Below, piece by piece: positions 32,836-57,034 of a stretch of DNA of 64,000 nucleotides. This stretch comes from Candidatus Latescibacterota bacterium. GTDB lineage: Bacteria; Latescibacterota; UBA2968. How positions within the stretch are numbered: position 1 is the stretch's first letter; each line of letters opens with the position of its first letter. A program made the position numbers and the translations under genes. Under the pieces are notes generated by a model. It saw only the letters and a list, made by a program, of their open reading frames with translations. It was not told the origin of the DNA and ran no database searches. The DNA lies in assembly GCA_965116885.1 (NCBI GenBank), contig OZ220741.1:774881-838880 (forward strand), given 5' to 3'.

Positions 32836-32855
32836 AACAAAGGTGGAATAGGCAC

Positions 32856-33704: not shown

Positions 33705-33705
33705 T

Positions 33706-34329: not shown

Positions 34330-34331
34330 CG

Positions 34332-34739
34332 ATGCGATTGCAAATGCCCGGCAAACGCCGCCCGGCCATCAATGTGACCTCTTTGATCGACGTCCTGTTT
34401 TTATTGCTTACATTTTTTCTCGTAACCACGCAATTTGTCGATCAATCCGCGCTCAAAGTCGAACTGCCCGCCATGGCACACGCGGAAAAAACGCAGCACG
34501 CGAGGCGTTATATTCTCAACATATCGGCAGATGGTCAAATGGCATTGGATGGTCAGATCGTCGATCAAACGACATTGCGGGAATTATTAAAACAACACGC
34601 AGCGGCCATAGATGAAAGTGGGGGCCTGATTTTGCGGGCAGACCGCCAATTGCCTTATGGCGATGTGATGTCGATTCTGGACCTCGTCAGAGGTGTGGGA
34701 ATCAGACGGATTACCAATGCCACAGCGGAACCCGAATAG
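34332..34739 (+). CDS. exbD: ExbD/TolR biopolymer transport protein
   Basis: 135 aa; INVTSLIDVLFLLLTFFLVTTQF single TM; stop TAG lies inside the GACGAATA repeat. Confidence 0.8.
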   Translation: MRLQMPGKRRPAINVTSLIDVLFLLLTFFLVTTQFVDQSALKVELPAMAHAEKTQHARRYILNISADGQMALDGQIVDQTTLRELLKQHAAAIDESGGLILRADRQLPYGDVMSILDLVRGVGIRRITNATAEPE

Positions 34740-34850
34740 ACGAATAGACGGTGCGGGGTACAACTGGTCGTTTCCCAGACCAGTTCATAGACGAATAGAC
34801 GAACCCTGCCCTACCAGCCAACCGCTATCGTTGATTCGTTGATTCGTTGC
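34733..34850. repeat. Composite repeat element: (GACGAATA)n octamers flanking hairpin GGTACAACTGGTC-N9-GACCAGTTCATAG, then GAACCCTGCCCTACCAGCCAAC and inverted GATTCGTT copies
   Basis: About 85% identical to element at 53474-53650. Confidence 0.8.
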
Positions 34851-34861
34851 GAGGTAGGAAC

Positions 34862-35471: not shown

Positions 35472-35473
35472 AT

Positions 35474-35947: not shown

Positions 35948-35959
35948 AAGGTTTTTATT

Positions 35960-36346: not shown

Positions 36347-36416
36347 TAAAAAGAATTTTATGAAAAAATAAGTGAGTAATCGTTTACTTTCTTCAAAGAT
36401 TTGAGAGGACGGAAGA

Positions 36417-38072: not shown

Positions 38073-38076
38073 ACCT

Positions 38077-41000: not shown

Positions 41001-41352
41001 AAGAGATCAAGGCATGCCCAAAATGGAGGCCATAGCAGAAGGGGGCAAAGTGCGCCTGCGTCCCATTTTAATGACCACCTCGACAACCGTGCTCGGTTTG
41101 TTGCCTATGGCGCTGGGCGTTTTCAATTTTCAGCCCCTTGTCAAAAGCATCGAAGGCGCGCTGGATGGCATATTGTCCGGACAGGTATTCGTCGTGGTCA
41201 TGGCTGTAGTGGGTATGATATTCCCCGTGGGACAGGGCGCAGAGATACGCGCGCCTATGGCCATTACTGTTATCGGCGGCCTGGTCGTATCAACACTGGT
41301 AACCCTGGTACTGATCCCAACGCTGTATTCGCTAACCGACCGCAAGGAATAG
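38077..41352 (+). CDS. RND family efflux transporter permease (AcrB/HAE1-like)
   Basis: 1091 aa, 12-TM with two large periplasmic loops; 4-nt spacing from MFP gene. Confidence 0.9.
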   Translation: MKLIEFSTRRRVTVTMFVAAAVLFGMVAFQRLSINLLPDITYPTLTVRTEYEGTAPSEMERLITEPIEGSVGVVNGVIRVTSASRPGISDVVVEFAWGTDMDFASLDIREKLDQVRLPQDVRKPVLLRFDPSLDPIMRIGLYGEESLISLRLLAEEEIKPELESLEGVASVRVNGGLEEEIQVEIDQPKLAALRIPLAQVVNRLAQENVNLTGGELKDGEAEYLVRTFNEFKTIEEIQDIVVGQRQGTVITLADIGLVTRGHRERTVITRIDQQESVELAIYKEGDANTVTVAQAVKEAIAQFRRTSGDLLGNSRMEVVSDQSTFIRDSVSEVLNTAILGGFLAIIVLYLFLQSPKSTGIISVSIPISVVATFFLMYASDVSLNIMSLGGLALGIGMLVDNSIVVLESVQRYQESGMSPREATNKGGSEVGQAVVASTMTTICVFVPIVFVEGIAGQLFRDQALTVTYSLVASLLVALTVIPMLASLEFSWIGEFAAVEQRKKESGHKGGVEGPAHIMGMLGAVAGWLGRGILACLAPLFWLFDRVIGRAYLIYPHIIRWALRHRLYVIGLAIALLAGTATLGNRLGSELIPEMSQGEFSISVEMPLGTPLAATTQSIQAIERIVRSQPEVRLVYSIVGTQSASGGSGGEERENVGEVNVVLHEGIIRDREIAVMDRLRQMILEIPAVDTKFTRPSLFSSRTPIEVEVAGYNLQSLQMIAGEMMARMQTIPGLTDVKTTSEGGTPEVQIRFDRKRVAQMGTTINAIGEIIRNQVQGEVATQFTRGDRRVDIRVRAEEEHRSTVDDLRRLIISPNNAPSPVPLSVVADLQVEMGPAEIRRIDQERVALISANLVGRSLSAVVADLEREIDRMELPADFAIKVGGQNEEQQRSFESMQLAIGLAIFLVYLVMASQFESLVHPFVIMFAIPFALVGVFALLLLTGQTISVVVLIGLIMLAGIVVNNAIVLIDYINTLRRDQGMPKMEAIAEGGKVRLRPILMTTSTTVLGLLPMALGVFNFQPLVKSIEGALDGILSGQVFVVVMAVVGMIFPVGQGAEIRAPMAITVIGGLVVSTLVTLVLIPTLYSLTDRKE

Positions 41353-41353
41353 C

Positions 41354-42175
41354 ATGGAGCAGAGCCGAAATGAAGCGTTTGTCGAATCGCTTCAGAACTA
41401 TTCGCTTTCAGAACTCGAAGATATTTATGCACATCTGGACCGAGACCTGTTTCCAGAGCGATTCGATCAAGTCAGGGACGAAATTGAAGCGCGCTTAAAG
41501 GACTTTGATTCAAAAGCTACAGGCATAAGTACACTAACTGGATCACCCGGATTTTTGAGACGCATCGCATCGAGCGCGATTGATTTCTCCATGCAAGTGC
41601 TCGTTCCCTTTTTGATTTTTTTTCTTCTCAAAAGCGTTCTTTTTCCAAGTGCCCCAACCGCAAGTGGCGGGGGTGGACGCGGCGGACGAGGTGGCGGGGG
41701 ACGCGGCGGACGAGGTGGGGGCGGTGGCGGCAATCAATCCGATGACCTCTGGTCAGACATCACGGGTTTTGTGGGCAGTGCAAAGGACATCGCTGTTGGA
41801 TTGGTCGAAGGGGATCCCGCAGCACAGAGCAGGGCGATGCTTATCTGGAACGATTTTGGTATCATCCTGGTCATTCTACTCGTTTTCCGGGTCTTCATGA
41901 CCTTATCGGGGTGGGCGCGTTCTGGATTTACCCCTGGAATGCGCGAATTGGGCATTCGGGTCGAGCGCGTTGGAGGCGGTGTTCCAACCTGGTCACAAGC
42001 GGTGGGCAGATTTGTTCTACAGCCTCTAATTTTTATCGCGACACTGGGGCTCAGTGGTCTGTGGATGCTATGGGATCGCGACAGTCGGGCACTTCACGAT
42101 AAAATTCTCGGCACAAGGCTCGTTCGCGTGGTGCGCACCTGGGAAAAAACTGGATCCGAGAGAAGATTTGAATAG
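41354..42175 (+). CDS. RDD family membrane protein with internal GGGRGGRGGGGRGGRGGGGGG tract
   Basis: C-term LWDRDSRALHDKILGTRLVR (R..D..D); start 2 nt after RND stop. Confidence 0.6.
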   Translation: MEQSRNEAFVESLQNYSLSELEDIYAHLDRDLFPERFDQVRDEIEARLKDFDSKATGISTLTGSPGFLRRIASSAIDFSMQVLVPFLIFFLLKSVLFPSAPTASGGGGRGGRGGGGRGGRGGGGGGNQSDDLWSDITGFVGSAKDIAVGLVEGDPAAQSRAMLIWNDFGIILVILLVFRVFMTLSGWARSGFTPGMRELGIRVERVGGGVPTWSQAVGRFVLQPLIFIATLGLSGLWMLWDRDSRALHDKILGTRLVRVVRTWEKTGSERRFE

Positions 42176-42255
42176 AATATGTCAGTTATCCGAAACTTTT
42201 AATCATGTGATTTCGTCTAAACCCTCGAAATATTTTAAGAGGAGGAGTAAGTATT

Positions 42256-42693
42256 ATGTATAGACGGATGTATAAAGTGTGTTGTGTCGTGCTGGCAACC
42301 GCATTTTTTTGGGGGTGTTTGGCCCCTGTTGCCGAAGCGCAGTCCCTTTTTACTGCACGGCGCACATTTGGTATCTTATTTCTCGGAGGTAGTGCGTTTA
42401 TGGCCAAGCGCGCCATTGATTATAAGCGCGATGCAAACGACATCTATGAAGCCTACAAGGCGGCGACAGATGCACGGGAAGCCGAGCGGCTTTTTAACCG
42501 CACAAGTGATCGAGATACCAAGAGCCAGATGAGTATTGGATTTTCCGCAATTTTGTTGATCAGTGGTTTGCGTTTGCTCATGCACAGCGGCGTGGATGAT
42601 AAAATGCCCAAAATTGATCGACGAATCAAAATTGATCTCAACAGTGATATTCGCAAAAAGTCTGTTGGGATTGTGTTAAAGAAAAAATTTTAA
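42256..42693 (+). CDS. Small hypothetical lipoprotein/secreted protein
   Basis: Strong RBS AGGAGGAG; signal VLATAFFWGCLAPVAEAQS. Confidence 0.55.
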   Translation: MYRRMYKVCCVVLATAFFWGCLAPVAEAQSLFTARRTFGILFLGGSAFMAKRAIDYKRDANDIYEAYKAATDAREAERLFNRTSDRDTKSQMSIGFSAILLISGLRLLMHSGVDDKMPKIDRRIKIDLNSDIRKKSVGIVLKKKF

Positions 42694-42702
42694 TCATCAA
42701 TA

Positions 42703-45700
42703 ATGGGCCATGAGGAGATTATTATGAATCACTGGTGGACGCGCCGACTACAAGTCGGCCTTTTGGGGATTGCGATAATTTTAATTGCTATGTGGGGATG
42801 CGGACGCGAGCGCGTAAATCCAATTGACGCACAATATGAGGGTGAGGGAAGCGTAACTCTGAATGCGCCGGGCAATATTCGCGCCCAGGGCGGTATTGGA
42901 CGGATCACTTTGAACTGGAATCCGGTAAACAGCACCAGCCTTGCGGGATACGGCATATCGCGGTCAACATCGGCTACGGGAGACTACGTGCTGTTACGCG
43001 GCGAATCATCTGTCCCCGGCGCGACGACAGCACGGACGACATTTGTGGATTCAACAATAGATGTTAGTGTATCGAAAATATACTTTTACAAACTCAGCAG
43101 CGTAGATGTAGATGGACAAGCGAGCGAGTTGTCTGCATTTGTAAGCGCAGAAGTCCTCGATGATACGCGCGCACCAGCTATGCCGACAAATCTCGTCGCT
43201 ATCACCGATGCCGATGGCAAACAGGTGACACTGGGCTGGTCAGCACCAGAAACGGATGAGGGCAATCAGGAATTGACCGGCTTGTCCGGGTACAGAATTT
43301 TCAGGATCAAAGATTCGCAGGGCAAACTCCAGATACAGGGATCACAAACAGCTCTGGTTCAACTCGCAACAGAACTGGGCATTGACCTCGATAATCTGGG
43401 AGCAATATCCGACGACTTGAAGGATATTTTCGTCGAACTTGGGACAGTGCCAGCCGGCCAGACTTATTTCCTCGATACCGATGGACTCGAAGCTGGTGTG
43501 CTTCACGTTTATGTGGTCATCGCTGTTGATCCAGATGGCAACACCGGGCCTCCAGCACTTGCTTTAGTGACCATAAGCGCACCGGGCGCGAACGTACCAG
43601 TGCCTGCTGGCTTGCGCGCGACGAAAAATGAACAGGCGCGCATTGTCATCTCCTGGAATCCCGTGAACGATCCCAATTTGCTGGGCTATCTGGTCTTGCG
43701 GTCACAATCGACACAAGGTCCCTTCACATCCGTAACAAGTGATACGCTCTTTACCACGGGACAGACGACCTATGTCGATTCGCTCGTCACCACCGATCAA
43801 GTGTACTACTACAAAGTTCAAACCGTTGTGCAAGATCCTCAGCTTGGGCTATTGCGCAGTGATACTTCCACTTTCATTGACGGACAGGCACTTGCCGACC
43901 AGAGTGCTCCTGGCGCGCCCTCAGATCTCATCGTCAGCCTGGACGATGAGAATTTCCAGCGGGTGATGCTGAACTGGACTGCACCTGTAACAGACAGAAA
44001 TGGCAATGAACTGACCGGACTGGCCTCTTTTGAAATCTACCGGTCGCGCGAGAACAATACATCCTTTGCACTGATCGCCACAGTATCGAGCGATCAGGTG
44101 AGTTTTGTGGATACTTCTGTCGAATTGCTCACCACGTATTTCTATGCAATCAGAGCATTGGATCAAGCCGGCAATGCCGGACCCCGGTCTCAGCCGATAT
44201 CTGTGACCACCAGGGGATTTGCCATCCCGCGCAACGTGCGGGCAACTTCTGGTGTGCAGAAAATCACCTTGACCTGGACGGCAAACACCGAGCCTGAATT
44301 AACGGGATATGAAATCTTGCGCTTTACAGATCCCACGCACGAAACCCCCGACAAAACCTTCTCTTCTGTACTGACGACGTATGTGGATACCCCTGTCACA
44401 GCAGATCAACCCTTTGTCTATCGGGTGCGGGCGGTTGGCACCGCCAATGTAAAGAGCGAATTGTCACCCCCCGTCTCTGCACAGGCCACGGAAGCTGCTC
44501 CGGTTCTGGCAGCACCGCGCAATGTGCAGGCAAGGGGTGGGATTGGTCACATTACCATCACCTGGGCGGCAAACACAGAAGCAGAACTGATCGGATATCG
44601 CGTGATGCGCTATACAGACCCGGCACAAACCGAGGCTGAAGCGACCTTTATGACCGTGCAAACGACTTATGTCGATTCACCACTGGTATCGGAACAGACC
44701 TATGTGTATCGCGTACAGGCGCTTGGTACCAACAACGAAGAAAGCGAACGGTCACTATATGCCTCTGCAACGGTCTCAGCCGATCAGAGTCCTCCTGGCG
44801 CGCCTTCGGATCTCATCGTCAGTCTGGACGAGGCGAATTTCCAGCGCGTGACGCTCAGCTGGACGGCTCCCACGAGAGACAGCAATGGCAATGAATTGAC
44901 CGGATTGACCTCCTTTGAAATCTACCGGTCACGCGACAATAATACATCCTTTGCGCTAATCGCCACAGTATCGAGCGATCAGGTGAGTTATGAAGACACA
45001 TCTGTCGAGTTGTTGACGCGATACTTTTATGCGGTCAGAGCATTGGATCAGGCCGACAATGCCGGACCCCGGTCTCAGTCGGTATCTGTGACGACCAAAG
45101 GATTTGCTGCACCGCGCAACTTGCAGGCGACTGCTGGTGTGCAGCAAATCACCTTGACCTGGGCGGCAAATACCGAGCCGGAATTGACGGGATATGAAAT
45201 CTTGCGCTTTACAGATCCCACACAAGCAACACCTGAGCGAATCTTCTCTTCTGTGTTGACGACGTATGTGGACACCCCTGTCACAGCAGATCACCCCTAT
45301 GTGTATCGCGTGCGTGCGATTGGTCCTTCCAATGTGAAGAGCGAACTATCGGCTCCCGTTTTTGCACAGGCCACTGCGCCAGTTTTGGCAGCCCCGCGCA
45401 ATGTGCGCGCGACTGCTGGAATTGAGTACATTACCATCACCTGGTCTGCCAATACAGAAGCAGAACTGACCGGGTATCGCGTGATGCGCTATACAGACCC
45501 GGCACAAACCGAAGCCGAAGCGACCTTCACAATCGTGCATACGACTTATGTCGATTCGCCGCTGGTAGCAGGACAGACCTATGTCTATCGCGTACAGGCG
45601 GTAGGTGTAAACAATACAGAAAGCGAACTCTCGCTATTTGCCTCTGCAACGGTACTGATCGATGATAGCCCACCTGCTACTCCTGGCAATTTTGCCGCCG

Positions 45701-46281
45701 TTTTGGCGAGTACCGGCACAGCGGTAGAGTTGAGTTGGGATGCCTCCATAAGAGATGCAAATGGCGGTGCTCTGACCGGACTTGTCCGCTATGTGATTTA
45801 TCGAGACACATCGAATACTGTGCCGATTGAGCTAACGACCGTAGATGCGGCGCATCAAATGTATATAGATACCGGCCTGGTAAACCGCACGACTTACAGG
45901 TATCAGATCTCTGCCATTGACCATCGTGGTAATGAGAGTGCGCGATCACCCATCAGGACAGTGACCACATCTGAAACAGATGTCGTGGCACCATCGAACC
46001 TGCAGGTTTCTTATAATGGCGACGTCCCCGAGGTCACTTTGAACTGGAGTTCCCCCGCTGAGTTTGACAGTTTTGTGATTCAACGGGCAGTACTCGCTCC
46101 AGGTGCTTCACTTCAAGATTTAACAGATGCAAATTACACGAATTTGGACATCTCACAACAGACCACTTCTTATAGCGATACAACTATACAAAGTGGTGTC
46201 ACCTATGTTTACCGGGTCCGCACAAATCTTGCCGGACGGATCAGCAGTCCTTCCAATATTGTGATTATTGTGGTCCCATAG
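42703..46281 (+). CDS. Large cell-surface lipoprotein with multiple fibronectin type III-like domains; contains 885-bp tandem duplication
   Basis: 1192 aa; lipobox IAMWGC; repeated xPxNVxAxxGxxxITLxWxANTExELTGYxIxR FN3-like units. Confidence 0.8.
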   Translation: MGHEEIIMNHWWTRRLQVGLLGIAIILIAMWGCGRERVNPIDAQYEGEGSVTLNAPGNIRAQGGIGRITLNWNPVNSTSLAGYGISRSTSATGDYVLLRGESSVPGATTARTTFVDSTIDVSVSKIYFYKLSSVDVDGQASELSAFVSAEVLDDTRAPAMPTNLVAITDADGKQVTLGWSAPETDEGNQELTGLSGYRIFRIKDSQGKLQIQGSQTALVQLATELGIDLDNLGAISDDLKDIFVELGTVPAGQTYFLDTDGLEAGVLHVYVVIAVDPDGNTGPPALALVTISAPGANVPVPAGLRATKNEQARIVISWNPVNDPNLLGYLVLRSQSTQGPFTSVTSDTLFTTGQTTYVDSLVTTDQVYYYKVQTVVQDPQLGLLRSDTSTFIDGQALADQSAPGAPSDLIVSLDDENFQRVMLNWTAPVTDRNGNELTGLASFEIYRSRENNTSFALIATVSSDQVSFVDTSVELLTTYFYAIRALDQAGNAGPRSQPISVTTRGFAIPRNVRATSGVQKITLTWTANTEPELTGYEILRFTDPTHETPDKTFSSVLTTYVDTPVTADQPFVYRVRAVGTANVKSELSPPVSAQATEAAPVLAAPRNVQARGGIGHITITWAANTEAELIGYRVMRYTDPAQTEAEATFMTVQTTYVDSPLVSEQTYVYRVQALGTNNEESERSLYASATVSADQSPPGAPSDLIVSLDEANFQRVTLSWTAPTRDSNGNELTGLTSFEIYRSRDNNTSFALIATVSSDQVSYEDTSVELLTRYFYAVRALDQADNAGPRSQSVSVTTKGFAAPRNLQATAGVQQITLTWAANTEPELTGYEILRFTDPTQATPERIFSSVLTTYVDTPVTADHPYVYRVRAIGPSNVKSELSAPVFAQATAPVLAAPRNVRATAGIEYITITWSANTEAELTGYRVMRYTDPAQTEAEATFTIVHTTYVDSPLVAGQTYVYRVQAVGVNNTESELSLFASATVLIDDSPPATPGNFAAVLASTGTAVELSWDASIRDANGGALTGLVRYVIYRDTSNTVPIELTTVDAAHQMYIDTGLVNRTTYRYQISAIDHRGNESARSPIRTVTTSETDVVAPSNLQVSYNGDVPEVTLNWSSPAEFDSFVIQRAVLAPGASLQDLTDANYTNLDISQQTTSYSDTTIQSGVTYVYRVRTNLAGRISSPSNIVIIVVP
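43901..45670. repeat. Two tandem 885-bp (295-codon) near-identical units inside FN3 gene
   Basis: Unit A 43901-44785, unit B 44786-45670; both start APGAPSDLIVSLD(D/E)(E/A)NFQRV. Confidence 0.85.
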
Positions 46282-46302
46282 AAACCCGCGAGAAAGGAAA
46301 AA

Positions 46303-46340
46303 AATGGCGTTCTTCTTTTGAAGGACGCCATTTTCTTTAT
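46303..46340 (+). terminator. Rho-independent terminator after FN3 gene (AATGGCGTTCT / AGGACGCCATT stem, then TTCTTTAT)
   Basis: 11-bp stem with 1 mismatch, 8-nt loop, T-rich tail. Confidence 0.6.
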
Positions 46341-46446
46341 AAATAGGCGTCAACTGTCGCCTTTTATGCGTCAGATATCAAAGTTAAGAATTTTCATAAT
46401 CTCTTTAACCAATTTATTATCAACATGTTATAAATCTCATCACCTC

Positions 46447-46462
46447 TGGCACAGATTGTGCA
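46447..46462 (+). promoter_or_regulatory. Candidate sigma-54 (-24/-12) promoter TGGCACAGATTGTGCA about 42 nt upstream of the sigma-54 activator gene
   Basis: GG and GC elements with correct spacing (consensus TGGCACG-N4-TTGCW, one mismatch in -12 box). Confidence 0.35.
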
Positions 46463-46504
46463 TGATGTCTCTTGTAAAACAACTCACTACATATTGGAGG
46501 TTTT

Positions 46505-47854
46505 ATGGGAGACATACTGATTGTTGATGGAAACCCGCAACGCGCAATGCAATTGGCGCAACTGGCAGAAGAACTCGGCGCAAACGCGCGCACAGCGAGT
46601 TCCTTTTTTCACTGCTTGAAACGCATTGAAGAAAAAATTCCCGATCTCGCCCTTGTCGCTGAAACCCTCCCCGATGGACGGGGATTAAAGCTACTTCCCG
46701 TATTTGATGGCCTGTGTCCCGTCGTAATTATCGGTGAATATATGGCATCTGATAGAATACTCGAGGCTCTGTCGTCGGGAGCGCGCGATTTTCTCGTACA
46801 CCCCATTGACCGTCAGACGCTGGATATTCTGATCTCTCAATTGCAGGGTGAGGGCAAAATCGCACTGCACTATCTGTCTCAGAATCCCGGGGGTGAGTCG
46901 CCGACGGGAATGGTAATTGGATCGTGTCCAGACATGTTATTTGCACTCAAGCGCGCGGGCCTGGCAGCGCGAACATCAGCAACGGTCCTGATCTATGGTG
47001 AAAGTGGAACTGGAAAAGAGTTAATGGCGCGAGAAATCCATCGGGCATCGGGACGGGTGGGTGCATTTGTAGCACTCAATTGTGCTGCAATAGCAGAAAA
47101 TATTGCCGAAAGTGAACTCTTTGGGCATGAGCGAGGTGCTTTTACCGGTGCCATAACCCGTCGGGCAGGGTGTTTTGAACAAGCCGATGGTGGCACGCTT
47201 TTTCTCGACGAAATTGGCGAGGCTTCGCCTGCATTTCAAGCCAAGCTATTGCGGGTATTAGACCGCGGTGAATTTGTCAGAGTTGGCGGGCAATCCCCCA
47301 TACAAACGCAGGTTCGGATCATTGCTGCCACCAACCGCGACCTCGATTCCATGATCGAGCAAGACAAATTTCGCCTGGATTTGTTTTACAGGCTCAGCGC
47401 CGTGACCATAGCCCTCCCCCCACTGCGAGAGCGCAGCGAAGATATTCCACACATTGTTCAAGCAATGCTAACGCGATTGAAAACCGATACCGGCGTGGAG
47501 GTCCGGGGGGTATCTGAAGCGGCAGTTGCATATCTGGCGGGATGTGAATGGCCGGGCAATTTAAGGGAATTGCAACACGCCATTTACCGCGCAGCCCTGG
47601 CCTGTCAAAAAGGGGTAATTCGACCTGAACATCTCGATGTACTCAAATCTACACAGTCCAGCGCACAGGACAAAGTTGAAACCCTGGATGAAATCGAGCA
47701 GGCGCATATTGAACGGGTACTACTCACTACCGGTGGCAATCAGGGACGAGCCTGTGAGTTGCTCGGAATATCCAGACCGACGTTGAGACGAAAAATACGC
47801 CGATACGCGCTTGAAAGAGTGAAAAACGGACAGGTGAGTTCAACCTTGACTTGA
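46505..47854 (+). CDS. Sigma-54-dependent transcriptional activator (NtrC-family response regulator: receiver, AAA+ sigma-54 interaction and HTH_8 domains)
   Basis: GESGTGKELMAREIH Walker A; ESELFGHERGAFTGA (GAFTGA); C-term ...GNQGRACELLGISRPTLRRKIRRY. Confidence 0.9.
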   Translation: MGDILIVDGNPQRAMQLAQLAEELGANARTASSFFHCLKRIEEKIPDLALVAETLPDGRGLKLLPVFDGLCPVVIIGEYMASDRILEALSSGARDFLVHPIDRQTLDILISQLQGEGKIALHYLSQNPGGESPTGMVIGSCPDMLFALKRAGLAARTSATVLIYGESGTGKELMAREIHRASGRVGAFVALNCAAIAENIAESELFGHERGAFTGAITRRAGCFEQADGGTLFLDEIGEASPAFQAKLLRVLDRGEFVRVGGQSPIQTQVRIIAATNRDLDSMIEQDKFRLDLFYRLSAVTIALPPLRERSEDIPHIVQAMLTRLKTDTGVEVRGVSEAAVAYLAGCEWPGNLRELQHAIYRAALACQKGVIRPEHLDVLKSTQSSAQDKVETLDEIEQAHIERVLLTTGGNQGRACELLGISRPTLRRKIRRYALERVKNGQVSSTLT

Positions 47855-47910
47855 GAAAAGGTACAACCCATACTATGACGAGTTTTTAATTTTTTTATAG
47901 AGAGGTATTT

Positions 47911-49077
47911 ATGGGATTTCTCATTGATCTGGTCTGTACAAAAACGGACAAAGCGTATTCAAAAGACCTCCTCTGGAATTTGAGTCCAGAGGCAGAGGCG
48001 CCGTTATTTGCCCGATATGACCTCGATGCGGTTGCAAAAGCTATGCGCCGGGAAAAACTCGCAGAACGAGTACCGACAATGTGGCGTTATGCCGAAGTTT
48101 TACCCGTCGAAAACGAGCAATTTCAGGTAAGTCTCGGCGAAGGATTTACCCCCTTGTTGCAAGCAACATCGTTGGGGCGAAAAATTGGCGTGCCAAAGCT
48201 GTACATCAAAGACGAAGGCTTAAATCCAACGGGATCATTTAAAGCGCGAGGCATGTCAGCGGCAATTTCGAGAGCTGCGGAATTGGGTGCTCGGGCCATT
48301 GCCATCCCCTCGGCTGGCAATGCAGGTGGCGCAACAGCCGCTTATGCTGCGCGAGCGGGCTTGCCAGCGCATATTTTTATGCCTAAAGATGTGCCACAGG
48401 CCAATTATATCGAATGTAAGGTCTTGGGCGCAAATGTCGAATTGATAGACGGTCTGATTTCCGATTGCGGAAAAATTGTGGCATCGCGCAAAGAAGCCGA
48501 GGGATGGTTCGATATCTCGACACTCAAAGAGCCATACCGCGTGGAAGGCAAAAAAACGATGGGCTATGAATTGGCCGAACAATTTGATTGGGAATTGCCA
48601 GAAGTCGTCATCTATCCAACCGGAGGTGGCACGGGACTGATAGGCATGTGGAAGGCATTTGACGAAATGGAACAAATGGGATGGATTGGCTCAGAACGCC
48701 CCCGCATGATATCCGTACAAGCCGAGGGATGCGCACCCATTGTTCGAGCTTATAGCGCAGGAGAAGAACACGCCGAACCGTGGGCCGATGCAGAAACAAT
48801 CGCCGCAGGTCTGCGCGTTCCCGCTGCCGTAGGCGATTTTTTAATGCTAAAAGCCATCCGCGACAGCGGTGGATGCGCGCTCTCCGTCACAGATGAAGAA
48901 CTGATGGCATCCGCATCAAAAATGGCTGCTGCCGTGGGTTCATTTCCCGCACCCGAAGGCGCAGCTACCCTCTCTGCCCTCGAAAAACTCATAGCACAAA
49001 ACCTGGTTAGCGAGCGCGAGCGCGTCGTATTATTCAACACGGGAACAGGCTTAAAATACATCGAACTATTTGAGTGA
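47911..49077 (+). CDS. Threonine synthase-like PLP-dependent enzyme (fold type II)
   Basis: 388 aa; LNPTGSFKARG PLP-lysine motif; short ThrC-like N-terminus. Confidence 0.6.
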   Translation: MGFLIDLVCTKTDKAYSKDLLWNLSPEAEAPLFARYDLDAVAKAMRREKLAERVPTMWRYAEVLPVENEQFQVSLGEGFTPLLQATSLGRKIGVPKLYIKDEGLNPTGSFKARGMSAAISRAAELGARAIAIPSAGNAGGATAAYAARAGLPAHIFMPKDVPQANYIECKVLGANVELIDGLISDCGKIVASRKEAEGWFDISTLKEPYRVEGKKTMGYELAEQFDWELPEVVIYPTGGGTGLIGMWKAFDEMEQMGWIGSERPRMISVQAEGCAPIVRAYSAGEEHAEPWADAETIAAGLRVPAAVGDFLMLKAIRDSGGCALSVTDEELMASASKMAAAVGSFPAPEGAATLSALEKLIAQNLVSERERVVLFNTGTGLKYIELFE

Positions 49078-52218: not shown

Positions 52219-52244
52219 GGGACGGCACAGGGGCCGTCCCCTAC
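52219..52244. repeat. REP-like palindrome GGGACGGCACAGGGGCCGTCCCCTAC preceded by AATAAAAC
   Basis: Identical to copies at 61455 and 61536; reverse complement of copy at 964. Confidence 0.8.
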
Positions 52245-52285: not shown

Positions 52286-53482
52286 ATGTTTGAATCCCTG
52301 ACAATGGCCCCTGCGGATCCCATTATAGGATTGACCGAAGCATTCAAAAACGATCCAAACCCCAACAAAATAAACCTCGGCGTTGGCGTGTACAAAGACG
52401 GCGACGGCAACACACCAATATTTGTCTCTGTAAAAACAGCAGAAGAACGCCTACTCGCACATGAAGACACCAAAAATTATCTCGGCATAGAAGGCGACGA
52501 AGCGTATAACAAAGCCGTCCAGGAACTCCTCTGGGGAACAGAACACGAAATCCTCACCAGTGGACGCGCGGGAACAGCCCAGGCACCGGGCGGCACGGGC
52601 GCGTTGCGCATTGCCGGTGACTTTATTCATCAGCACTATCCCCATGCCCGCGTATGGCTGAGCGATCCCACCTGGGCAAACCACCCCAAAATTTTTGAAT
52701 CTGCCAGCGTACCCACAGCGACCTACCGCTATTACAACCCCGCGTCTTTCGGCCTGGACTTTGATGCACTCATCCAGGACCTCGAACAAATCCCCGCTGG
52801 CGATGTCGTATTACTACACGGATGTTGCCACAACCCCACCGGCGTCGATCCCTCCGCCGAGCAATGGGCACAAATAGCCGATATCATCGCAGATCGCGGC
52901 ATCATCCCACTCGTTGACTTTGCCTATCAGGGCCTGGGCAATGGCCTTGCTGAAGACGCAGTCGGACTCCTATCTCTCAGCCGACCCGGCAGCGAACTCC
53001 TCGTCGCCAGTTCCTTCTCCAAAAACTTTGGCCTCTACCGCGAACGCACAGGCGCATTGACCCTCGTGGGAAAAAACGCCGCCACCGTTGAAAAAGCGAT
53101 GAGCCACATCAAAATCTGCATCCGCACAAATTATTCCAACCCGCCATCGCACGGCGCACAGGCAGTCGCAACAGTCCTCAACGACACCGACCTGCGAGCA
53201 CAATGGGACGGCGAAGTAAAAGCCATGCGCGACCGCATCAACACCATGCGCACCCTATTTGTGGATACCCTCGAAACAAAAGGCGTGCGGCGCGACTTTT
53301 CGTTTATCGCACACCAGAGGGGAATGTTCTCATTCTCCGGGTTGACCCCCGAGCAAGTAGATGCATTGCGCGAGCGATATTCGATATACATCGTCAGTTC
53401 GGGACGCATCAACGTGGCGGGCATGACAAAGGACAATATTGGGCCATTGTGTGAGGCGATCGCGGAAGTGATAGACGAATAG
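52286..53482 (+). CDS. aspC: Aspartate/aromatic-amino-acid aminotransferase (class I, AspC/TyrB family)
   Basis: 399 aa from MFESLTMAPADPIIGLTEAFKNDPNPNKINLGVGVY; SFSKNFGLYRER PLP-lysine motif. Confidence 0.85.
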   Translation: MFESLTMAPADPIIGLTEAFKNDPNPNKINLGVGVYKDGDGNTPIFVSVKTAEERLLAHEDTKNYLGIEGDEAYNKAVQELLWGTEHEILTSGRAGTAQAPGGTGALRIAGDFIHQHYPHARVWLSDPTWANHPKIFESASVPTATYRYYNPASFGLDFDALIQDLEQIPAGDVVLLHGCCHNPTGVDPSAEQWAQIADIIADRGIIPLVDFAYQGLGNGLAEDAVGLLSLSRPGSELLVASSFSKNFGLYRERTGALTLVGKNAATVEKAMSHIKICIRTNYSNPPSHGAQAVATVLNDTDLRAQWDGEVKAMRDRINTMRTLFVDTLETKGVRRDFSFIAHQRGMFSFSGLTPEQVDALRERYSIYIVSSGRINVAGMTKDNIGPLCEAIAEVIDE

Positions 53483-53765
53483 ACGAATAGACGAATAGAC
53501 GGAGCGGTGTACAACTGGCCGCCTCTCAGGCCAGTTCATAGACGAATAGACGAATAGACGAATAGACGAATAGACGAATAGACGAATAGACGAATAGACG
53601 AATAGACGAATAGACGAATAGACGAACCCCGCCCAACCACCCAACGGGCGGGCACAGGGGCACCGCCCCTACATTGATGAACTGTACCGAACCAGTTGTA
53701 CCCCGTTCCGTAGATTCGCTGATGAACTGCTGGCGCAGTTGTACCCCGTTCCGCTGATTCGCCTT
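53474..53765. repeat. Composite repeat: (GACGAATA)x3, hairpin GTACAACTGGCC-N9-GGCCAGTTCATAG, (GACGAATA)x10, GAACCCCGCCCAACCACCCAAC, a REP-like palindrome (53646-53672), then two inverted degenerate copies of the hairpin unit
   Basis: Octamer units start at 53541 every 8 nt to 53620; first units overlap aspC stop codon. Confidence 0.85.
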
Positions 53766-53779
53766 TCCAGGGAGACATC

Positions 53780-54553
53780 ATGACACTCAAAGACCGCATA
53801 GCAATCGTCACAGGCGCAAGCTCTGGCATTGGACGGGGCATAGCACTGGCACTTGCCCGAGAAGGCGCAGGTGTAGCAGTGGCCGATATTCAGGAAGCAC
53901 CTAAAAAGGGCATCTATCACGACACTGACCTGACCACTTCTACAGTTGAAGAAATAGAAAAACTGGGAGGAAAAGGGATCTTTGTGCAGACCGACGTATC
54001 CGATGACGAGGCGGTGAAAATCCTGATCGAACGGACCGTCTCCGAATTTGGCAAACTGGACATCCTAATAAACAACGCCGGCATCACAATACCCGGCGGC
54101 ATTGAAGAAACGACCATCGCCGACTACGACACCGTAATGGGCGTAAACCTTCGGGCACTATATGTCGCCAGCAAACTCGCCATGCCACACCTCAAAAAAC
54201 CCTCGGGCAGAATCATCCACATCGCATCTGTACAGTCATTCGGCGGTGGTGGCGGACCCGCGTATGCCGCATCAAAAGCCGGCGTAGTCAACCTCACGCG
54301 AGACACCGCCCTGGAATTGGCCCCCTTTGGCGCAACCGTCAACGCCATCTGCCCGGGCTACATCGAAACGCCCATACAGGATTATCTCACACCGCAGGAA
54401 ATTGAAGACTGCCGGGTAAAAACCCCACTGCCCCGCCTGGGTTTGCCATCGGACATCGGCAACGCCGCGGTATTCTTCGCATCGGACGCCGCCGCATGGA
54501 TCACCGGCACCGCCCTGCCCGTGGATGGCGGATGGATGGCGTCTATTTTTTGA
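53780..54553 (+). CDS. SDR family NAD(P)-dependent oxidoreductase
   Basis: TGASSGIG cofactor motif; S..YAASK catalytic tetrad. Confidence 0.85.
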   Translation: MTLKDRIAIVTGASSGIGRGIALALAREGAGVAVADIQEAPKKGIYHDTDLTTSTVEEIEKLGGKGIFVQTDVSDDEAVKILIERTVSEFGKLDILINNAGITIPGGIEETTIADYDTVMGVNLRALYVASKLAMPHLKKPSGRIIHIASVQSFGGGGGPAYAASKAGVVNLTRDTALELAPFGATVNAICPGYIETPIQDYLTPQEIEDCRVKTPLPRLGLPSDIGNAAVFFASDAAAWITGTALPVDGGWMASIF

Positions 54554-54559
54554 TTCTCA

Positions 54560-57034
54560 TCAATGCGGTATTCCCAACTGATGCATCCGCCGATGAATCG
54601 CTGCACGGGCTTCGACAAAGGGACGTTCCAAATACGCGAGATGGTCCAACTCGCCATGATGGTGCGTCGCCGTGCCAGAGGCGTGTCGGGCAGCGGTTTG
54701 ACGGATGTACGCCAGGTCGCCATCGATAAGCGTCAGCATATACTGGGCGGCTTCCAGATCGAACATCCACCACTCGCCACCGCAGGCGATATAAATCGGC
54801 GACGTATGGGCGAAAATCCCCCGTCCCCAGCCATCGTGATGGGGAACACTGGTATAATTGGGACCGGCACATCGGGCGGCAATCCACGTATGACCATCCA
54901 CCTTCACCTTTCCCTTTAGTTCCAGTCGTCGCGCACCTTTATTATCCTCCGTCGAAGCAACAACGCGCCCTGCCTGAACGATCTCGAGCGTATGAATCGG
55001 GAAAATACTCTCTGCCCACGCCTCGACCTCCACCGTACCGGCTCCCGACAACTGCATCGTATCGCCAACCTGGTGTCCATCTGCGGTAAGATGAATGATG
55101 GGACCACCGCTGTGAAATGTTCGCCCCTGTGACACACTCTTGCACCAATTATCGTAGGTGAATTCCTCGTCGGGCAAATAGGCGTACGTGCGGTAAATAC
55201 CAACGGGCACATCGCTACTCATCTTATCCGTTCCACCAACCAGCGGCAAGCGGTAACCGCAGTTGAGATAGCGGTAGTATTCCAGATGATTGAACGGCGC
55301 ATGACGCAGCATCTCCACGCCATCCACGCGCCCCGTGGCAATCAGCGCCGCAGGCTCCCCATTTGGATTCGGGAGATGCGGGATAATAACCGAGCCACCC
55401 TGCGCGTGACACTGATCCGCCCAATCGCTCATCGTAATCTCCAGCGTACCACCCAGTTCGGACTCACCCGGACCGTCACTGCACCACGGCATCACCGGCT
55501 CCTTGAGACCCCACAGGATGAGATGCCCCAAAAAGTGCTGCCTATTCTCCTGACCCACATAGACGATATTATTCCCATCTTGCGAAATACTCGGCCTGCC
55601 CGTAAAATCCTCCGTATTGGTAAAAAGATTGCCCCACTGCGACGGAAGCAAATTAACGATATTGAGATCCTCCCCCTGGGACTCCGTATGACTTCCCTGT
55701 GTCGAAAGAAAGTGAACGTGCGAATCCCCGCTATACCATCCCCCCTCGTTCATATGAATCCATCGCTTGAGACGCAAAGTCAGTTCGCGTTGACCCGGTT
55801 CGATCTTCACCCGCGTCCGCACCGGCTCATACTCAAATCCCCGGGCGACATCCACAATAACTTCACCGCGCGGCAACCACCCCTGGCAACGACCGTCGAT
55901 GTACGCATAAGTGATTTGTCCGAGCCGAAGATCGCCACCAATATCAACATGCCAGCTATCGAGGTTAGAATTGACCTGATTGTGATGCCCGTAAGGCTGA
56001 TAGGGAATCCCCTCTGGCGAGCGGAAATGGACGCGGCAAGGGATAGGCTTGCCCGTATCGTCATCGAGCACAGTGACGTGAACCCAGTTCCGTCCCCGAT
56101 CCAGGAGTTCCACACGCATGCGCGGGGTCTCGACCACCTTCTTCTCCTCCACATCACCCCACTTGACCTCGCCCACCTTTTCCTCGCCCTGCTTCACCGT
56201 CATCGTAGCCGAAGGCGTGGCAGCGACCTCGACATAAGCCGGACTCGATTTGGGATTCTGCGCCTCTCCCCAACCGGCGAAATCATCATTGACAAAATCA
56301 TCGGCAGACGCTTCGGGCAAGGGATGCACATAAGTTGCCGTCCCCCGATCCACCTCTACGTTGAGATCAAACGGTTTTTCCGCATCTTCGGGATGGGTCA
56401 GAATCAGACGCGCTTCCCGCTTCCCGTGTCGCACAAAAGGATACTCATCCAGATGCGAAAGCGTAACACCCGCGATAATAAAACGCGGACCGCCCGGGAT
56501 AATCTCCAGCGACTCGACTACGCGATCCGGCAAAGGATTCTCCCACGCCCACAGAAAATAACCGCGGGCCGACCCGCGCGACACCTCGGTCTGACGTCGC
56601 CCCATACTCTCCCATTTCCCTTCATAACGCGGCATCAACTGGTCGTTCTGGTCCGAAAATGCGACAAAAGGCGCGCCGCCGCTGGATAAATGTGCAATCT
56701 CAAATCGCTCGCGGATGGGAATGCGGAATTCTTCACCCTCCGCCATCCGAAACAAATAATCCGCCACAGTCTCCCCCAACGGACCGCCCTCCATCAGATC
56801 GGAATCCAACAGGCGATGAGCAATAATCACGCGGCGTGCCGACGCATTGATCGGAATCGTCACGCGACCAGAAGCCTCATCCAGCGCGATAAAACAATTC
56901 GAACCGTCGTCGTTTACCAAAAATGGCAGACCGCGGAAGGATTGTTTGCCTATAGGAGCCTTCGCATTTGCGCCCAGAACTTCCAGTCCCGCACTGCACA
57001 ACGCCGACAAATCGAGAGGTTGATAGTCTGCCAT
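54560..57034 (-). CDS. Large PHP-like/CehA-McbA-type metallohydrolase domain protein
   Basis: 824 aa; GDSHVHFLSTQGSHT His-rich metal-binding motif; no signal peptide obvious. Confidence 0.45.
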   Translation of the reverse strand: MADYQPLDLSALCSAGLEVLGANAKAPIGKQSFRGLPFLVNDDGSNCFIALDEASGRVTIPINASARRVIIAHRLLDSDLMEGGPLGETVADYLFRMAEGEEFRIPIRERFEIAHLSSGGAPFVAFSDQNDQLMPRYEGKWESMGRRQTEVSRGSARGYFLWAWENPLPDRVVESLEIIPGGPRFIIAGVTLSHLDEYPFVRHGKREARLILTHPEDAEKPFDLNVEVDRGTATYVHPLPEASADDFVNDDFAGWGEAQNPKSSPAYVEVAATPSATMTVKQGEEKVGEVKWGDVEEKKVVETPRMRVELLDRGRNWVHVTVLDDDTGKPIPCRVHFRSPEGIPYQPYGHHNQVNSNLDSWHVDIGGDLRLGQITYAYIDGRCQGWLPRGEVIVDVARGFEYEPVRTRVKIEPGQRELTLRLKRWIHMNEGGWYSGDSHVHFLSTQGSHTESQGEDLNIVNLLPSQWGNLFTNTEDFTGRPSISQDGNNIVYVGQENRQHFLGHLILWGLKEPVMPWCSDGPGESELGGTLEITMSDWADQCHAQGGSVIIPHLPNPNGEPAALIATGRVDGVEMLRHAPFNHLEYYRYLNCGYRLPLVGGTDKMSSDVPVGIYRTYAYLPDEEFTYDNWCKSVSQGRTFHSGGPIIHLTADGHQVGDTMQLSGAGTVEVEAWAESIFPIHTLEIVQAGRVVASTEDNKGARRLELKGKVKVDGHTWIAARCAGPNYTSVPHHDGWGRGIFAHTSPIYIACGGEWWMFDLEAAQYMLTLIDGDLAYIRQTAARHASGTATHHHGELDHLAYLERPFVEARAAIHRRMHQLGIPH

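What the first reader, a model, noticed from the sequence alone, without database searches (positions are those of the whole stretch)
53474..53765. Expanded copy of the octamer-hairpin element (13 GACGAATA units) plus two inverted degenerate copies and a REP palindrome, between aspC and an SDR gene
It has 3 + 10 octamer units around the hairpin, then a REP-like palindrome (53646-53672), then two reverse-orientation hairpin units (TGATGAACTG...CAGTTGTACCCCGTTCCG...GATTCGC). Translating the minus strand across the array gives spurious SSIRLFVY repeat ORFs. An 8-nt period is not a multiple of 3, so expansion or contraction would shift any readthrough frame. This is a likely hotspot for slipped-strand variation and for assembly error.
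Basis: seen in the sequence. Interest (0 to 1): 0.55.

Follow-up and report, generated by a model that had tools for sequence, protein, structure and literature searches.

The report
Latescibacterial mosaic repeat with octamer arrays
The space between an aminotransferase gene and a dehydrogenase gene is filled by one copy of an apparently undescribed, probably mobile, repeat family found only in Latescibacterota genomes: a highly conserved small hairpin set in 8-base tandem arrays that change length between related genomes, which is interesting to repeat specialists but of an ordinary kind.

Summary
Window 53471-53765 holds 3+10 perfect GACGAATA units around a hairpin, a C-rich box, a GTAG-headed REP-like palindrome and two inverted hairpin copies.

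All of this is one composite element of a canonical type. A smaller copy lies at 34733-34849.

The 30-39-nt hairpin core (GRAR-CGGKGTACAACTG-variable tip-CAGTTCAT) was found in 109 of the 110 genome stretches returned, from 16 Latescibacterota MAGs. It was absent from viral contigs, Rfam and the papers searched.

Its flanks differ by subfamily. They are 7-10-nt tandem repeats or a 130-nt MITE.

Orthologous comparisons show:
- whole-element presence or absence;
- core-only presence or absence;
- different flanks at the same site (the aspC-SDR ortholog L022);
- octamer differences in exact multiples of 8 nt.

The GACGAATA arm is polar: 19 sense against 3 antisense. It usually supplies the upstream gene's stop codon, as it does for aspC.

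Best reading: a REP/BIME-like, non-autonomous mosaic element with slippage-prone arms. No transposase was found, so the mobilising enzyme is unknown. An RNA-level role is not excluded.

The parts
52286..53482 (+). AspC-like aminotransferase gene. Its last three codons and its TAG stop (53480-53482) lie inside the first octamer units.
   Evidence: Pfam PF00155, E 1e-85. Sequence read. The ortholog in L022 ends ..EVLRD* instead of ..EVIDE*.
53471..53501 (+). Left arm, octamer array 1: 3.9 x ATAGACGA (3 full GACGAATA units), running into the GGAG junction of the core.
   Evidence: TRF, 100% matches; positions.
53501..53539 (+). Core hairpin, long form, pointing inward: GGAG-CGGTGTAC-AACTGGCC-gcctctca-GGCCAGTT-CAT. 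Stem 53513-53520 with 53529-53536.
   Evidence: Covariance model R1, 65.6 bits, E 3e-18. DNA fold -8.0 kcal/mol.
53538..53626 (+). Octamer array 2: 11.1 x ATAGACGA (10 full GACGAATA units plus GACGAAcc), all units identical.
   Evidence: TRF score 178, 100% matches.
53627..53644 (+). C-rich box CCCCGCCCAACCACCCAA. This is the central module that follows the GACGAA end of the arm in many composites.
   Evidence: Motif search: 29 copies in the loci and 2 in the window. Architecture table.
53646..53672 (-). GTAG-headed REP-like palindrome GTAGGGGCGGTGCCCCTGTGCCCGCCC, nested in the centre of the composite.
   Evidence: Fold z = -2.9. The family head motif occurs 117 times in the loci, with other window copies at 932(-) and 61499(+).
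53677..53709 (-). Core hairpin, shortened form with a 5-bp stem, pointing inward (right arm, inner copy).
   Evidence: R1, 40.4 bits, E 1e-10.
53710..53721 (-). First 12 nt of the 16-nt, two-octamer linker (minus strand CAGCGAATCTACGGAA) between the tandem right-arm cores. Its last four bases (GGAA) are counted in the core at 53677-53709.
   Evidence: Read. Linkers between tandem cores elsewhere are 8, 16 or 24 nt.
53722..53752 (-). Core hairpin, short form (AACTGC-gcca-GCAGTT), pointing inward (right arm, outer copy).
   Evidence: R1, 47.2 bits, E 1e-12. Fold.
53753..53765 (-). Outer end of the right arm: a degenerate GCGAATCA-type octamer (minus strand GGCGAATCAG). It ends a few nt before the GGGAGA ribosome-binding site of the SDR gene.
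   Evidence: Sequence. Right arms of the same type appear.
53780..54553 (+). Short-chain dehydrogenase/reductase gene immediately downstream.
   Evidence: Pfam PF13561/PF00106.
34733..34849 (+). Second, small composite of the same type, between ExbD and an ECF sigma factor gene. Layout: 2 octamers, core (34750-34788), 2 octamers, C-box (34804-34821), inverted TCGTTGAT x 2.8 (34828-34849). The ExbD stop TAG (34737-34739) lies in the first unit.
   Evidence: (59.1 bits).

Best explanation
Window 53471-53765 is one copy of a lineage-specific, non-autonomous mosaic repeat of Latescibacterota. It is analogous to REP/REPIN and BIME elements.

Its constant module is a 30-39-nt hairpin, the 'core'. 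The core has an invariant single-stranded 5' flank (GRAR-CGGKGTAC), an invariant stem base (AACTG/CAGTT), a freely varying or deletable stem tip, and a 3' CAT.

The core sits in arms made of short tandem repeats. In this subfamily the left arm is GACGAATA. The right arm is a related NCGAATCN octamer in inverted orientation. Between the arms lie a C-rich box and, here, a nested GTAG-type REP.

Shown:
- The family and its architecture.
- The hairpin, with compensatory changes.
- Presence/absence of whole composites and of the core alone at orthologous sites.
- Replacement of flanks at the same site.
- Changes of octamer number in exact multiples of 8 nt.
- A strong polarity: the GACGAATA arm lies sense and directly against the 3' end of the upstream gene, and commonly provides its stop codon.

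Inferred:
- The core is the recognition site of a trans-acting enzyme that acts on hairpin DNA. A tyrosine/HUH-type enzyme such as a RAYT is the obvious model. This enzyme would spread or exchange the modules.
- The arrays grow and shrink by slipped-strand mispairing. The perfect 3+10 array here would be a recent expansion.
- The polarity arises because only the orientation with stops in all three frames (TAG in the left arm, TGA in the right arm) is tolerated when the element overlaps a gene end.
For: Family and specificity:
109 of them come from 16 Latescibacterota MAGs.
- There were 0 hits in viral contigs, none in 80 unrelated metagenome loci, no Rfam match and no paper.

Hairpin:
- Two inner stem pairs covary: GC<->CG 24 cells and CG<->UA 13 cells. 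In total 94.8% of cells pair, against 87% in shuffles and at most 41% in slid registers (same on model-derived hits).
- The outer five pairs and both flanks are invariant.

Modularity:
- The same core occurs with six flank types.
- Core-only filled/empty pairs: L079/L064, L072/L097 and L080/L005 (the last in a REP loop). A 130-nt MITE occurs with and without the core.

Mobility or turnover:
- Whole composites are present in L031, L074 and L081 but absent from the orthologous sites of L042, L107 and L098.
- The aspC-SDR ortholog L022 (92% identity in the genes) has the same core at the same place but decamer-type flanks and no right arm.

Symmetry:
- Neighbouring cores of opposite orientation always face inward, 6 pairs against 0 outward.
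- All 27 composites have the layout arm> .. <arm.

Slippage:
- Arrays range from 2 to 13 units.
- Orthologous differences are exactly 8 or 16 nt.
- Short tandem repeats are about 7-fold enriched within 150 nt of cores.

Polarity:
- The GACGAATA arm is sense 19 times and antisense 3 times, p = 0.0009.
- It abuts a co-oriented gene end in 21 of 27 loci.
- The stop codon lies inside the array in 12 of 18 cases.
Against: - No transposase was found. E. coli RayT used as a phmmer seed hit nothing in the six-frame translation of 0.93 Mb. Genes recurring near cores are ordinary ones: sulfatases, GFO/IDH/MocA, SDR, LRR, ABC.
- The three whole-element filled/empty pairs show no target-site duplication and no consistent terminal nucleotides. 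Deletion rather than insertion could explain them.
- Inverted core doublets are rare: 12 of 144 cores, with 107 solo. This is unlike REPINs.
- Core orientation shows no bias with local GC skew, 60 vs 50. So there is no sign of lagging-strand targeting.
- The strong polarity towards transcription could equally mean a function in the mRNA.
Confidence: 0.6

Rival explanations
1. The composite is a functional intercistronic RNA module. Three-frame stop arrays release ribosomes. The left arm plus core then pairs with the inverted right arm plus core to form a long stem in the mRNA. That stem would protect the upstream 3' end, be processed, attenuate read-through, or couple the stop of gene 1 to the ribosome-binding site of gene 2.
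For: - The GACGAATA arm is strongly polar towards transcription: 19 sense vs 3 antisense, abutting stop codons.
- The right arm ends a few nt before the downstream ribosome-binding site.
- The 316-nt region folds at -101 kcal/mol, z = -6, with the left core paired to a right core.
- In L066 a composite occupies the place where the ortholog L063 has a canonical hairpin plus T-run terminator.
- No canonical terminator or sigma-70-like promoter lies in the aspC-SDR spacer.
Against: - Cores occur in both orientations relative to transcription, depending on the arm. Overall they show no bias (57 vs 51). This argues against recognition of the conserved single-stranded flanks in RNA.
- Orthologous genes manage without the element, or with a different subfamily.
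- A long stem is an automatic property of any inverted repeat.
- The core is not followed by a U-tract.
Confidence: 0.2
2. The octamer array is a contingency (phase-variation) locus. Changes in unit number would tune expression of the downstream SDR gene, as with intergenic simple-sequence repeats in Haemophilus.
For: - A perfect 89-nt array lies 150-240 nt upstream of the SDR start.
- Unit number changes between related genomes.
- Intergenic heptamer repeats are known to control hmw expression in H. influenzae (PMC8262952, PMC12721329, abstracts listed).
Against: - Arrays of the same unit lie next to many unrelated housekeeping genes. They sit next to the upstream gene's stop rather than at a fixed distance from a promoter.
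- No promoter-like site lies in or next to the array.
- The ortholog L022 has no array at all.
Confidence: 0.07
3. The tandem 7-10-bp units are operator-like arrays for a DNA-binding protein on double-stranded DNA, for example a ribbon-helix-helix or nucleoid protein. The hairpin would be incidental.
For: - Units of all subfamilies share a GAAT or GAT core: GACGAATA, AACGAATC, GAATTAA, CGCAGATGAA.
- They occur in direct and inverted arrays.
- From my own knowledge, not tested here: MetJ binds tandem 8-bp boxes (AGACGTCT) and the omega repressor binds heptad arrays in both orientations.
Against: - The most conserved part is the hairpin, not the units. The units differ freely between subfamilies and are replaced at orthologous sites.
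- Unit number is unconstrained, 2 to 13.
- No candidate protein was identified.
Confidence: 0.05
4. The long perfect array is an assembly artefact (over- or under-extension of a low-complexity repeat), and the rest is chance similarity.
For: - All 14 units are identical. This is what a collapsed or mis-extended repeat would also look like.
- The source reads are not available.
Against: - Arrays of 7, 8 and 13 units of the same octamer occur in independent assemblies, including chromosome-level ones: L070 in OX638317, L024 in OZ242195, L075.
- At 89 nt the array is shorter than a typical read.
- Chance is excluded by shuffles and by 144 related cores.
Confidence: 0.03

Closest known systems
REP / REPIN elements mobilised by RAYT tyrosine transposases (Pseudomonas, E. 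coli; Bertels & Rainey 2011, PMC3116915)
   Same: - A short extragenic hairpin of about 35 nt, with a conserved single-stranded 5' motif directly next to the stem (here GTAC; GTAG in REPs).
- Many copies per genome, confined to a lineage.
- Inverted copies always face inward and can form a large hairpin.
- Tandem copies also occur.
- Singlets, doublets and clusters coexist.
   Different: - No sequence similarity, and the head motif differs.
- Inward-facing doublets are rare: 6 pairs among 144 cores.
- The core is embedded in 7-10-nt tandem-repeat arms that differ between subfamilies.
- The element is polar towards transcription and donates stop codons.
- No RAYT was found in the DNA sampled.
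- A separate, classical GTAG-REP family coexists in the same genomes.
Bacterial interspersed mosaic elements (BIMEs) of E. coli, and neisserial intergenic mosaic elements (from my own knowledge)
   Same: - Intergenic mosaics built from a few recurring modules.
- Hairpin units in alternating orientation, separated by conserved linker motifs.
- Located after genes and between genes of operons.
   Different: - The modules are unrelated in sequence.
- The linkers here are expandable tandem octamers plus a C-rich box, rather than fixed motifs.
- One module type (the core) also occurs inside other repeats: a MITE and REP loops.
Pneumococcal BOX elements (boxA-(boxB)n-boxC) and cyanobacterial STRR heptamer arrays (from my own knowledge)
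   Same: - A modular element with an internal unit that varies in number.
- Dispersed intergenic arrays of 7-8-nt units that are specific to one lineage.
   Different: - boxB is 45 nt, not 8.
- STRR arrays are not described as arms around a conserved hairpin.
- Polarity and stop donation are not features reported for either, as far as I know.
Intergenic simple-sequence contingency loci, e.g. the 7-bp repeats upstream of hmw1A/hmw2A in Haemophilus influenzae (PMC8262952, PMC12721329)
   Same: A perfect short-unit tandem array in an intergenic region, whose unit number changes by slippage.
   Different: - Those arrays are single, gene-specific and tied to a promoter or 5' UTR.
- This array is one of many copies of a dispersed element. 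It is anchored to the upstream gene's stop codon.

Membership tests
REP/REPIN-RAYT system | Short (about 20-40 nt) imperfect palindrome that folds as a hairpin | tested here: met
   Core of 30-39 nt with a stem of 5-8 bp. Covariation occurs at two pairs.
REP/REPIN-RAYT system | Conserved GTAG (or GTGG) tetranucleotide at the 5' foot of the hairpin | tested here: not met
   The invariant 5' flank is CGGKGTAC, so the four bases next to the stem are GTAC, not GTAG. The nested palindrome at 53646-53672 does have GTAG.
REP/REPIN-RAYT system | Inverted doublets (REPINs) over-represented relative to singlets | tested here: not met
   107 solo cores, 25 only in tandem pairs, 12 in six inward-facing pairs (one of these also in a tandem pair) and 0 outward-facing. 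The repeat arms themselves are inverted in all 27 composites.
REP/REPIN-RAYT system | A cognate RAYT (Y1/HUH transposase) gene in the genome, usually flanked by its REPs | tested here: inconclusive
   phmmer with E. coli RayT against the six-frame translation of the window plus 109 loci (0.93 Mb) gave no hit at E <= 10. No transposase appeared among the recurrent or core-flanked genes. This used one distant seed, and only about 1% of the 16 genomes was sampled.
MITE derived from a DDE-transposase insertion sequence | Terminal inverted repeats plus a target-site duplication of fixed length | tested here: not met
   The arms are inverted, but three whole-element filled/empty pairs (L031/L042, L074/L107, L081/L098) show no duplication and no common termini. 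Core insertions inside arrays are flanked by one extra octamer, which cannot be told apart from a change in unit number.
BIME-type mosaic element | Intergenic combination of hairpin units in opposite orientations, joined by a small set of recurring linker motifs | tested here: met
   Canonical order: gene> A-array [core>] C-box [hp2 or REP] <core <B-array gene>. This holds in 27 composites, including both window loci. The match is architectural only, with no sequence relationship.
Intrinsic (Rho-independent) terminator | GC-rich hairpin followed directly by a U-tract | tested here: not met
   The consensus scan finds none between 53483 and 53779. The core is followed by CAT plus the repeat unit.
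CRISPR array | Regularly spaced identical repeats separated by unique spacers | tested here: not met
   At most 2-4 cores lie together. The sequences between them are multiples of the octamer or other repeats, not unique spacers.
Simple-sequence contingency locus | Unit number varies within a population and switches expression of an adjacent gene | not testable with these tools
   Only between-species variation could be seen. No reads or expression data are available.
Any described RNA family (Rfam 15) | Match to a curated covariance model | tested here: not met
   No hit at gathering score in the whole window. Only noise (E > 5) appeared in 53400-53800.

The most novel reading that the evidence does not exclude
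The 35-nt core may be the smallest unit of a so far unknown hairpin-directed DNA-exchange system. In this reading, an unidentified enzyme inserts the hairpin at G|AAT-like sites. Such sites are present in every type of flanking repeat, in the MITE and in the REP loops. The enzyme would also recombine elements through the core, so that flanks are swapped at a fixed chromosomal site, as at the aspC 3' end. The polar, stop-codon-donating composite would then have been co-opted as an intercistronic insulator.
Probability: 0.12. Interest if true: 0.7.

Novelty: new variant of a known kind. Interest (0 to 1): 0.45.

Why it matters
Practical consequences:
- The element rewrites the last codons and the stop of aspC, and of ExbD at the second locus.
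- It generates long spurious antisense ORFs (SSIRLFVY repeats).
- It fills whole intergenic spacers.

Annotation and assembly of Latescibacterota MAGs should therefore mask it.

Biological interest:
- It documents a rich, apparently undescribed repeat system in an uncultured phylum. A nearly invariant hairpin has been kept across at least 16 species, while its surroundings are exchanged.
- This gives a concrete handle for finding the enzyme that recognises the hairpin.
- The arrays and the filled/empty sites are ready-made strain markers.
- The strict polarity, with stop codons in all frames on the sense strand only, is a clean example of how selection, or function, shapes where small repeats can live in compact genomes.

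Tried and rejected
- Exact look-up of the SDR protein in the assembly index: not on record.
- Metagenome scan with AspC, to find more orthologs of this spacer. The best hits were only 57-66% identical, and none of the 80 loci carries the core or the octamers. Length variation at this very locus therefore stayed untested.
- Viral contigs: 0 matches.
- Rfam at gathering and at permissive thresholds: nothing. No tRNA or tmRNA.
- Literature: no paper with the octamer string, and nothing relevant on Latescibacteria repeats. The search for cyanobacterial STRR papers gave nothing usable.
- RAYT search with E. coli RayT: nothing.
- Clustering of 831 ORFs to find a recurrent mobile-element gene gave only metabolic families.
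- Genes enclosed by inward-facing cores or arrays are ordinary or spurious.
- Replication-strand bias of core orientation against local GC skew: 60 vs 50, not significant.
- Cyanobacterial HIP1 idea: GCGATCGC occurs once in the window, so it was rejected.
- Fixed 8-bp target duplication as the origin of the arrays: rejected, because other subfamilies have periods of 7, 9 and 10.
- Terminator reading of the core: no T-tract.
Full report
**1. Observation**

- TRF finds 3.9 and 11.1 copies of ATAGACGA at 53471-53501 and 53538-53626, both without a single mismatch.
- GACGAATA occurs 3 + 10 times.
- A two-unit probe matches 14 times, against none in 100 shuffles.
- Between the two arrays lies a hairpin, AACTGGCC-8 nt-GGCCAGTT.
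- Downstream come a C-rich box (53627-53644), a palindrome (53646-53672) and two hairpin units on the minus strand (53677-53709, 53722-53752).
- The palindrome reads GTAGGGGCGGTGCCCCTGTGCCCGCCC on the minus strand.
- The flanking genes are a class I/II aminotransferase (AspC-like, 52286-53482) and an SDR (53780-54553).
- A small copy of the same arrangement lies at 34733-34849, between ExbD and an ECF sigma factor gene.

**2. The constant part is a hairpin 'core'**

The four window copies share CGG[G/T]GTACAACTG - variable - CAGTTCAT.

Of these, 109 come from 16 Latescibacterota MAGs. The single exception is a 2-nt-loop match that looks like chance. The pattern is absent from viral contigs and from 80 unrelated metagenome loci. 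Nothing matches in Rfam or in the paper library.

A fuzzy search finds 144 cores in these loci plus the window.

An alignment of 78 distinct cores gives the following picture:
- an almost invariant 5' flank, GRAR-CGGKGTAC;
- an invariant stem base, AACTG/CAGTT;
- an invariant 3' CAT;
- a stem tip that is either long (GCC-G.....CA-GGC or GTC-..-GAC), shortened, or replaced by a C-G pair plus a tetraloop.

The inner pairs covary: GC<->CG in 24 cells and CG<->UA in 13. In total 94.8% of cells pair, against 87% in shuffles and at most 41% in slid registers. Hits collected by the covariance model give the same result.

The outer pairs never vary. They therefore show sequence constraint but say nothing about structure.

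This pattern is a conserved single-stranded flank, a conserved stem foot and a free tip. It is what one expects of a hairpin read by a protein.

**3. The variable part**

The core is found in six kinds of surroundings:
- GACGAATA octamers;
- AACGAATC-like octamers;
- GAATTAA/G heptamers;
- CGCAGATGAA decamers with an A-tract/T-tract linker;
- CAGGATGAN units;
- the interior of a roughly 130-nt MITE with CCTGTCATTCTGAGCG termini.

Core variants go with flank types, so the subfamilies propagate as units.

Short tandem repeats of period 6-12 are about seven-fold enriched within 150 nt of a core: 66 of 181 arrays lie in 5% of the sequence. Arrays of the same units also exist without a core, for example L024 with 8.8 units.

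**4. One composite element, with a canonical order**

I oriented all 27 loci that hold a GACGAATA array. They give one layout:

gene> (stop) - (GACGAATA)n - [core>] - C-rich box on either strand - [a second hairpin module or a GTAG-REP] - <core - (inverted NCGAATCN)m - next gene.

Both window loci fit this order.

The finding is therefore one composite, not four separate things. It has a left arm with a core, an expanded inner array, a C-box, a nested REP, and a right arm with two tandem short-form cores separated by a 16-nt (two-octamer) linker.

Where two cores of opposite orientation are neighbours, they face inward in 6 pairs and outward in none.

**5. Turnover between related genomes**

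The loci contain many orthologous pairs at 88-95% identity.

- The aspC-SDR spacer has one ortholog, L022 (92% identity in aspC). It carries the same core at the same position with one loop difference. However, its flanks are of the decamer type, there are no octamers, no REP and no right-arm cores, and AspC ends ..EVLRD* instead of ..EVIDE*.
- Whole composites are present in L031, L074 and L081 and absent from the same sites in L042, L107 and L098. No target duplication is visible.
- The core alone is present or absent in L079/L064 and in L072/L097. It is also present inside the loop of a GTAG-REP in L080 but not in L005.
- The MITE exists with and without the core. L097 has an extra core plus three octamers relative to L072.
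- In these cases the junction looks like G|A|AT becoming G[GAGCGG..CAGTTC]AT. This is a lead, not a demonstrated target rule, because position -4 (G) is itself conserved.
- Octamer number differs by exact multiples of 8 nt: 2 vs 4 in L004/L077 and 2 vs 3 in L050/L073.
- Across loci the arrays hold 2-13 units. The window's inner array (10 units) is second only to L075 (13 units).

**6. Polarity and stop codons**

Three GACGAATA units place TAG in all three frames. The reverse strand has no stop, which is why the spurious SSIRLFVY ORFs appear. The right arm read on the same strand (TGATTCGT) places TGA in all three frames. Its reverse strand has no stop either.

- The GACGAATA arm is sense to the flanking genes 19 times and antisense 3 times, p = 0.0009.
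- Its outer end touches the 3' end of a co-oriented gene in 21 of 27 loci.
- In 12 of 18 such cases the stop codon is inside the array: 10 use the TAG of GAATAG and 2 use TGAcgaatag. aspC and ExbD in the window both do this.
- Cores taken alone show no orientation bias towards genes (57 vs 51 with simple ORF calls). This is because they can sit in either arm.
- Cores show no bias with local GC skew (60 vs 50).

**7. Explanation**

The inverted symmetry of arms and cores, the filled/empty sites, the nesting in other repeats and the near-identity of cores across species point to DNA-level spread or exchange of a non-autonomous element. The core would be its recognition module. REP/REPIN-RAYT is the nearest model (PMC3116915).

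The perfect arrays and the 8-nt-step differences point to slipped-strand mispairing.

The polarity is most simply explained by selection. An element that overlaps a gene end is tolerated only in the orientation that stops translation at once.

None of the enzymatic steps is shown.
- RayT as a seed found nothing in 0.93 Mb.
- The gene families that recur near cores are sulfatases, GFO/IDH/MocA oxidoreductases, SDRs, DUF6785, LRR proteins and ABC transporters.
- Genes enclosed by inward-facing cores are ordinary or spurious.

That search covered about 1% of the genomes with one distant seed, so it is inconclusive.

**8. Rivals**

An RNA-level role is the serious alternative. The polarity, the position from stop codon to ribosome-binding site, the strong predicted long stem (-101 kcal/mol, z = -6), the lack of a canonical terminator or promoter in the spacer, and one case where a composite replaces a canonical terminator (L066 vs L063) all fit it.

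Against it:
- Cores are read in both orientations.
- The elements are dispensable at orthologous sites.
- Any inverted repeat folds well.

Three further readings are each unlikely, for the reasons given in their entries: phase variation of the SDR gene, a duplex-DNA operator array, and an assembly artefact.

**9. Comparison and novelty**

In architecture this is a BIME/REPIN-like mosaic with expandable arms. It recalls BOX elements and cyanobacterial STRR arrays (my own knowledge).

It fails two REP/REPIN criteria that could be tested, the GTAG head and the predominance of doublets. The RAYT criterion is open. I therefore do not file it as a REPIN.

It has no match in Rfam or in the searched literature. 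I rate it a new variant of a known kind.

It is of moderate interest for three reasons:
- a very conserved hairpin whose surroundings are swapped;
- strict polarity with donation of stop codons;
- a whole repeat ecosystem in an uncultured phylum.

Noticed in passing
window 1-24000 and 32000-48000; loci of OX638329.1: Local GC skew is unusually strong. It is -0.19 to -0.31 per 8 kb in the first 24 kb of the window and about +0.05 in the middle. In the related chromosome OX638329.1 the sign of the 8-kb skew switches near 2.05 Mb and about 6.2 Mb, as if marking the two replication arms.
   Followed up: partly
window 932(-), 975(+), 52219-52240(-), 61460(-), 61499(+), 61541(-): A second, classical-looking REP family (GTAGGGGCGACC..GGTCGCCC), with relatives GGGGACGGCCCCTGTGCCGTCCC. 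There are 117 head-motif hits in the related loci. The copy at 52219-52240 is followed by GTTTTATT and scores as terminator-like after the squalene/phytoene synthase genes.
   Followed up: partly
window 6971-7248: A 141-nt unit repeated twice in tandem at 92% identity. Its content and coding status were not examined.
   Followed up: no
window 36513-36561, 37545-37867, 41675-41731: GGACGCGCTGGACGC-type repeats with periods of 9 to 75 nt. The first two lie inside the HlyD-like ORF 36417-38072 and would encode a Gly/Arg/Gln-rich repetitive segment.
   Followed up: no
window 54560-57034 (-): An 823-aa ORF directly downstream of the SDR gene, convergent with it, has no Pfam match at E <= 1e-4.
   Followed up: no
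L074 about 3690-3800; L013, L009, L018, L030 and others: A roughly 130-nt MITE with termini CCTGTCATTCTGAGCG.. / ..CGCTCAGCATGACA is frequent in these genomes. Most copies carry the core in the middle. The L074 copy lacks it, with junction GAAGAAT|CTCTTACC.
   Followed up: partly
L092 5951-6160: A 66-nt unit repeated about 3.5 times. Each unit contains a 5'-truncated core (GTACAACTGCGATAGCGGTTCAT) plus an identical 43-nt CTTGCCT-rich segment. This is a tandem duplication, not a CRISPR array.
   Followed up: partly
L072 about 7715-7780: A left-arm core is itself interrupted by a 24-nt insertion between GGGGTA and CTGGCC. The orthologous arm in L097 has no core at all.
   Followed up: no
L050/L073, L044, L051, L064, L079 and others (absent from the window): Another recurrent central module, AACCTCTGGATTGCGGC-loop-GCCGCAATGACGG, gave 39 hits. 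It is a hairpin that often sits between the C-box and the right-arm core. A diverged copy occupies the aspC-SDR spacer of L022.
   Followed up: partly
L100/L110, L039/L006, L068, L099: ACTGAC[AC] heptamer arrays also change unit number between orthologous or duplicated loci, for example 1 vs 2 units in L039/L006.
   Followed up: no
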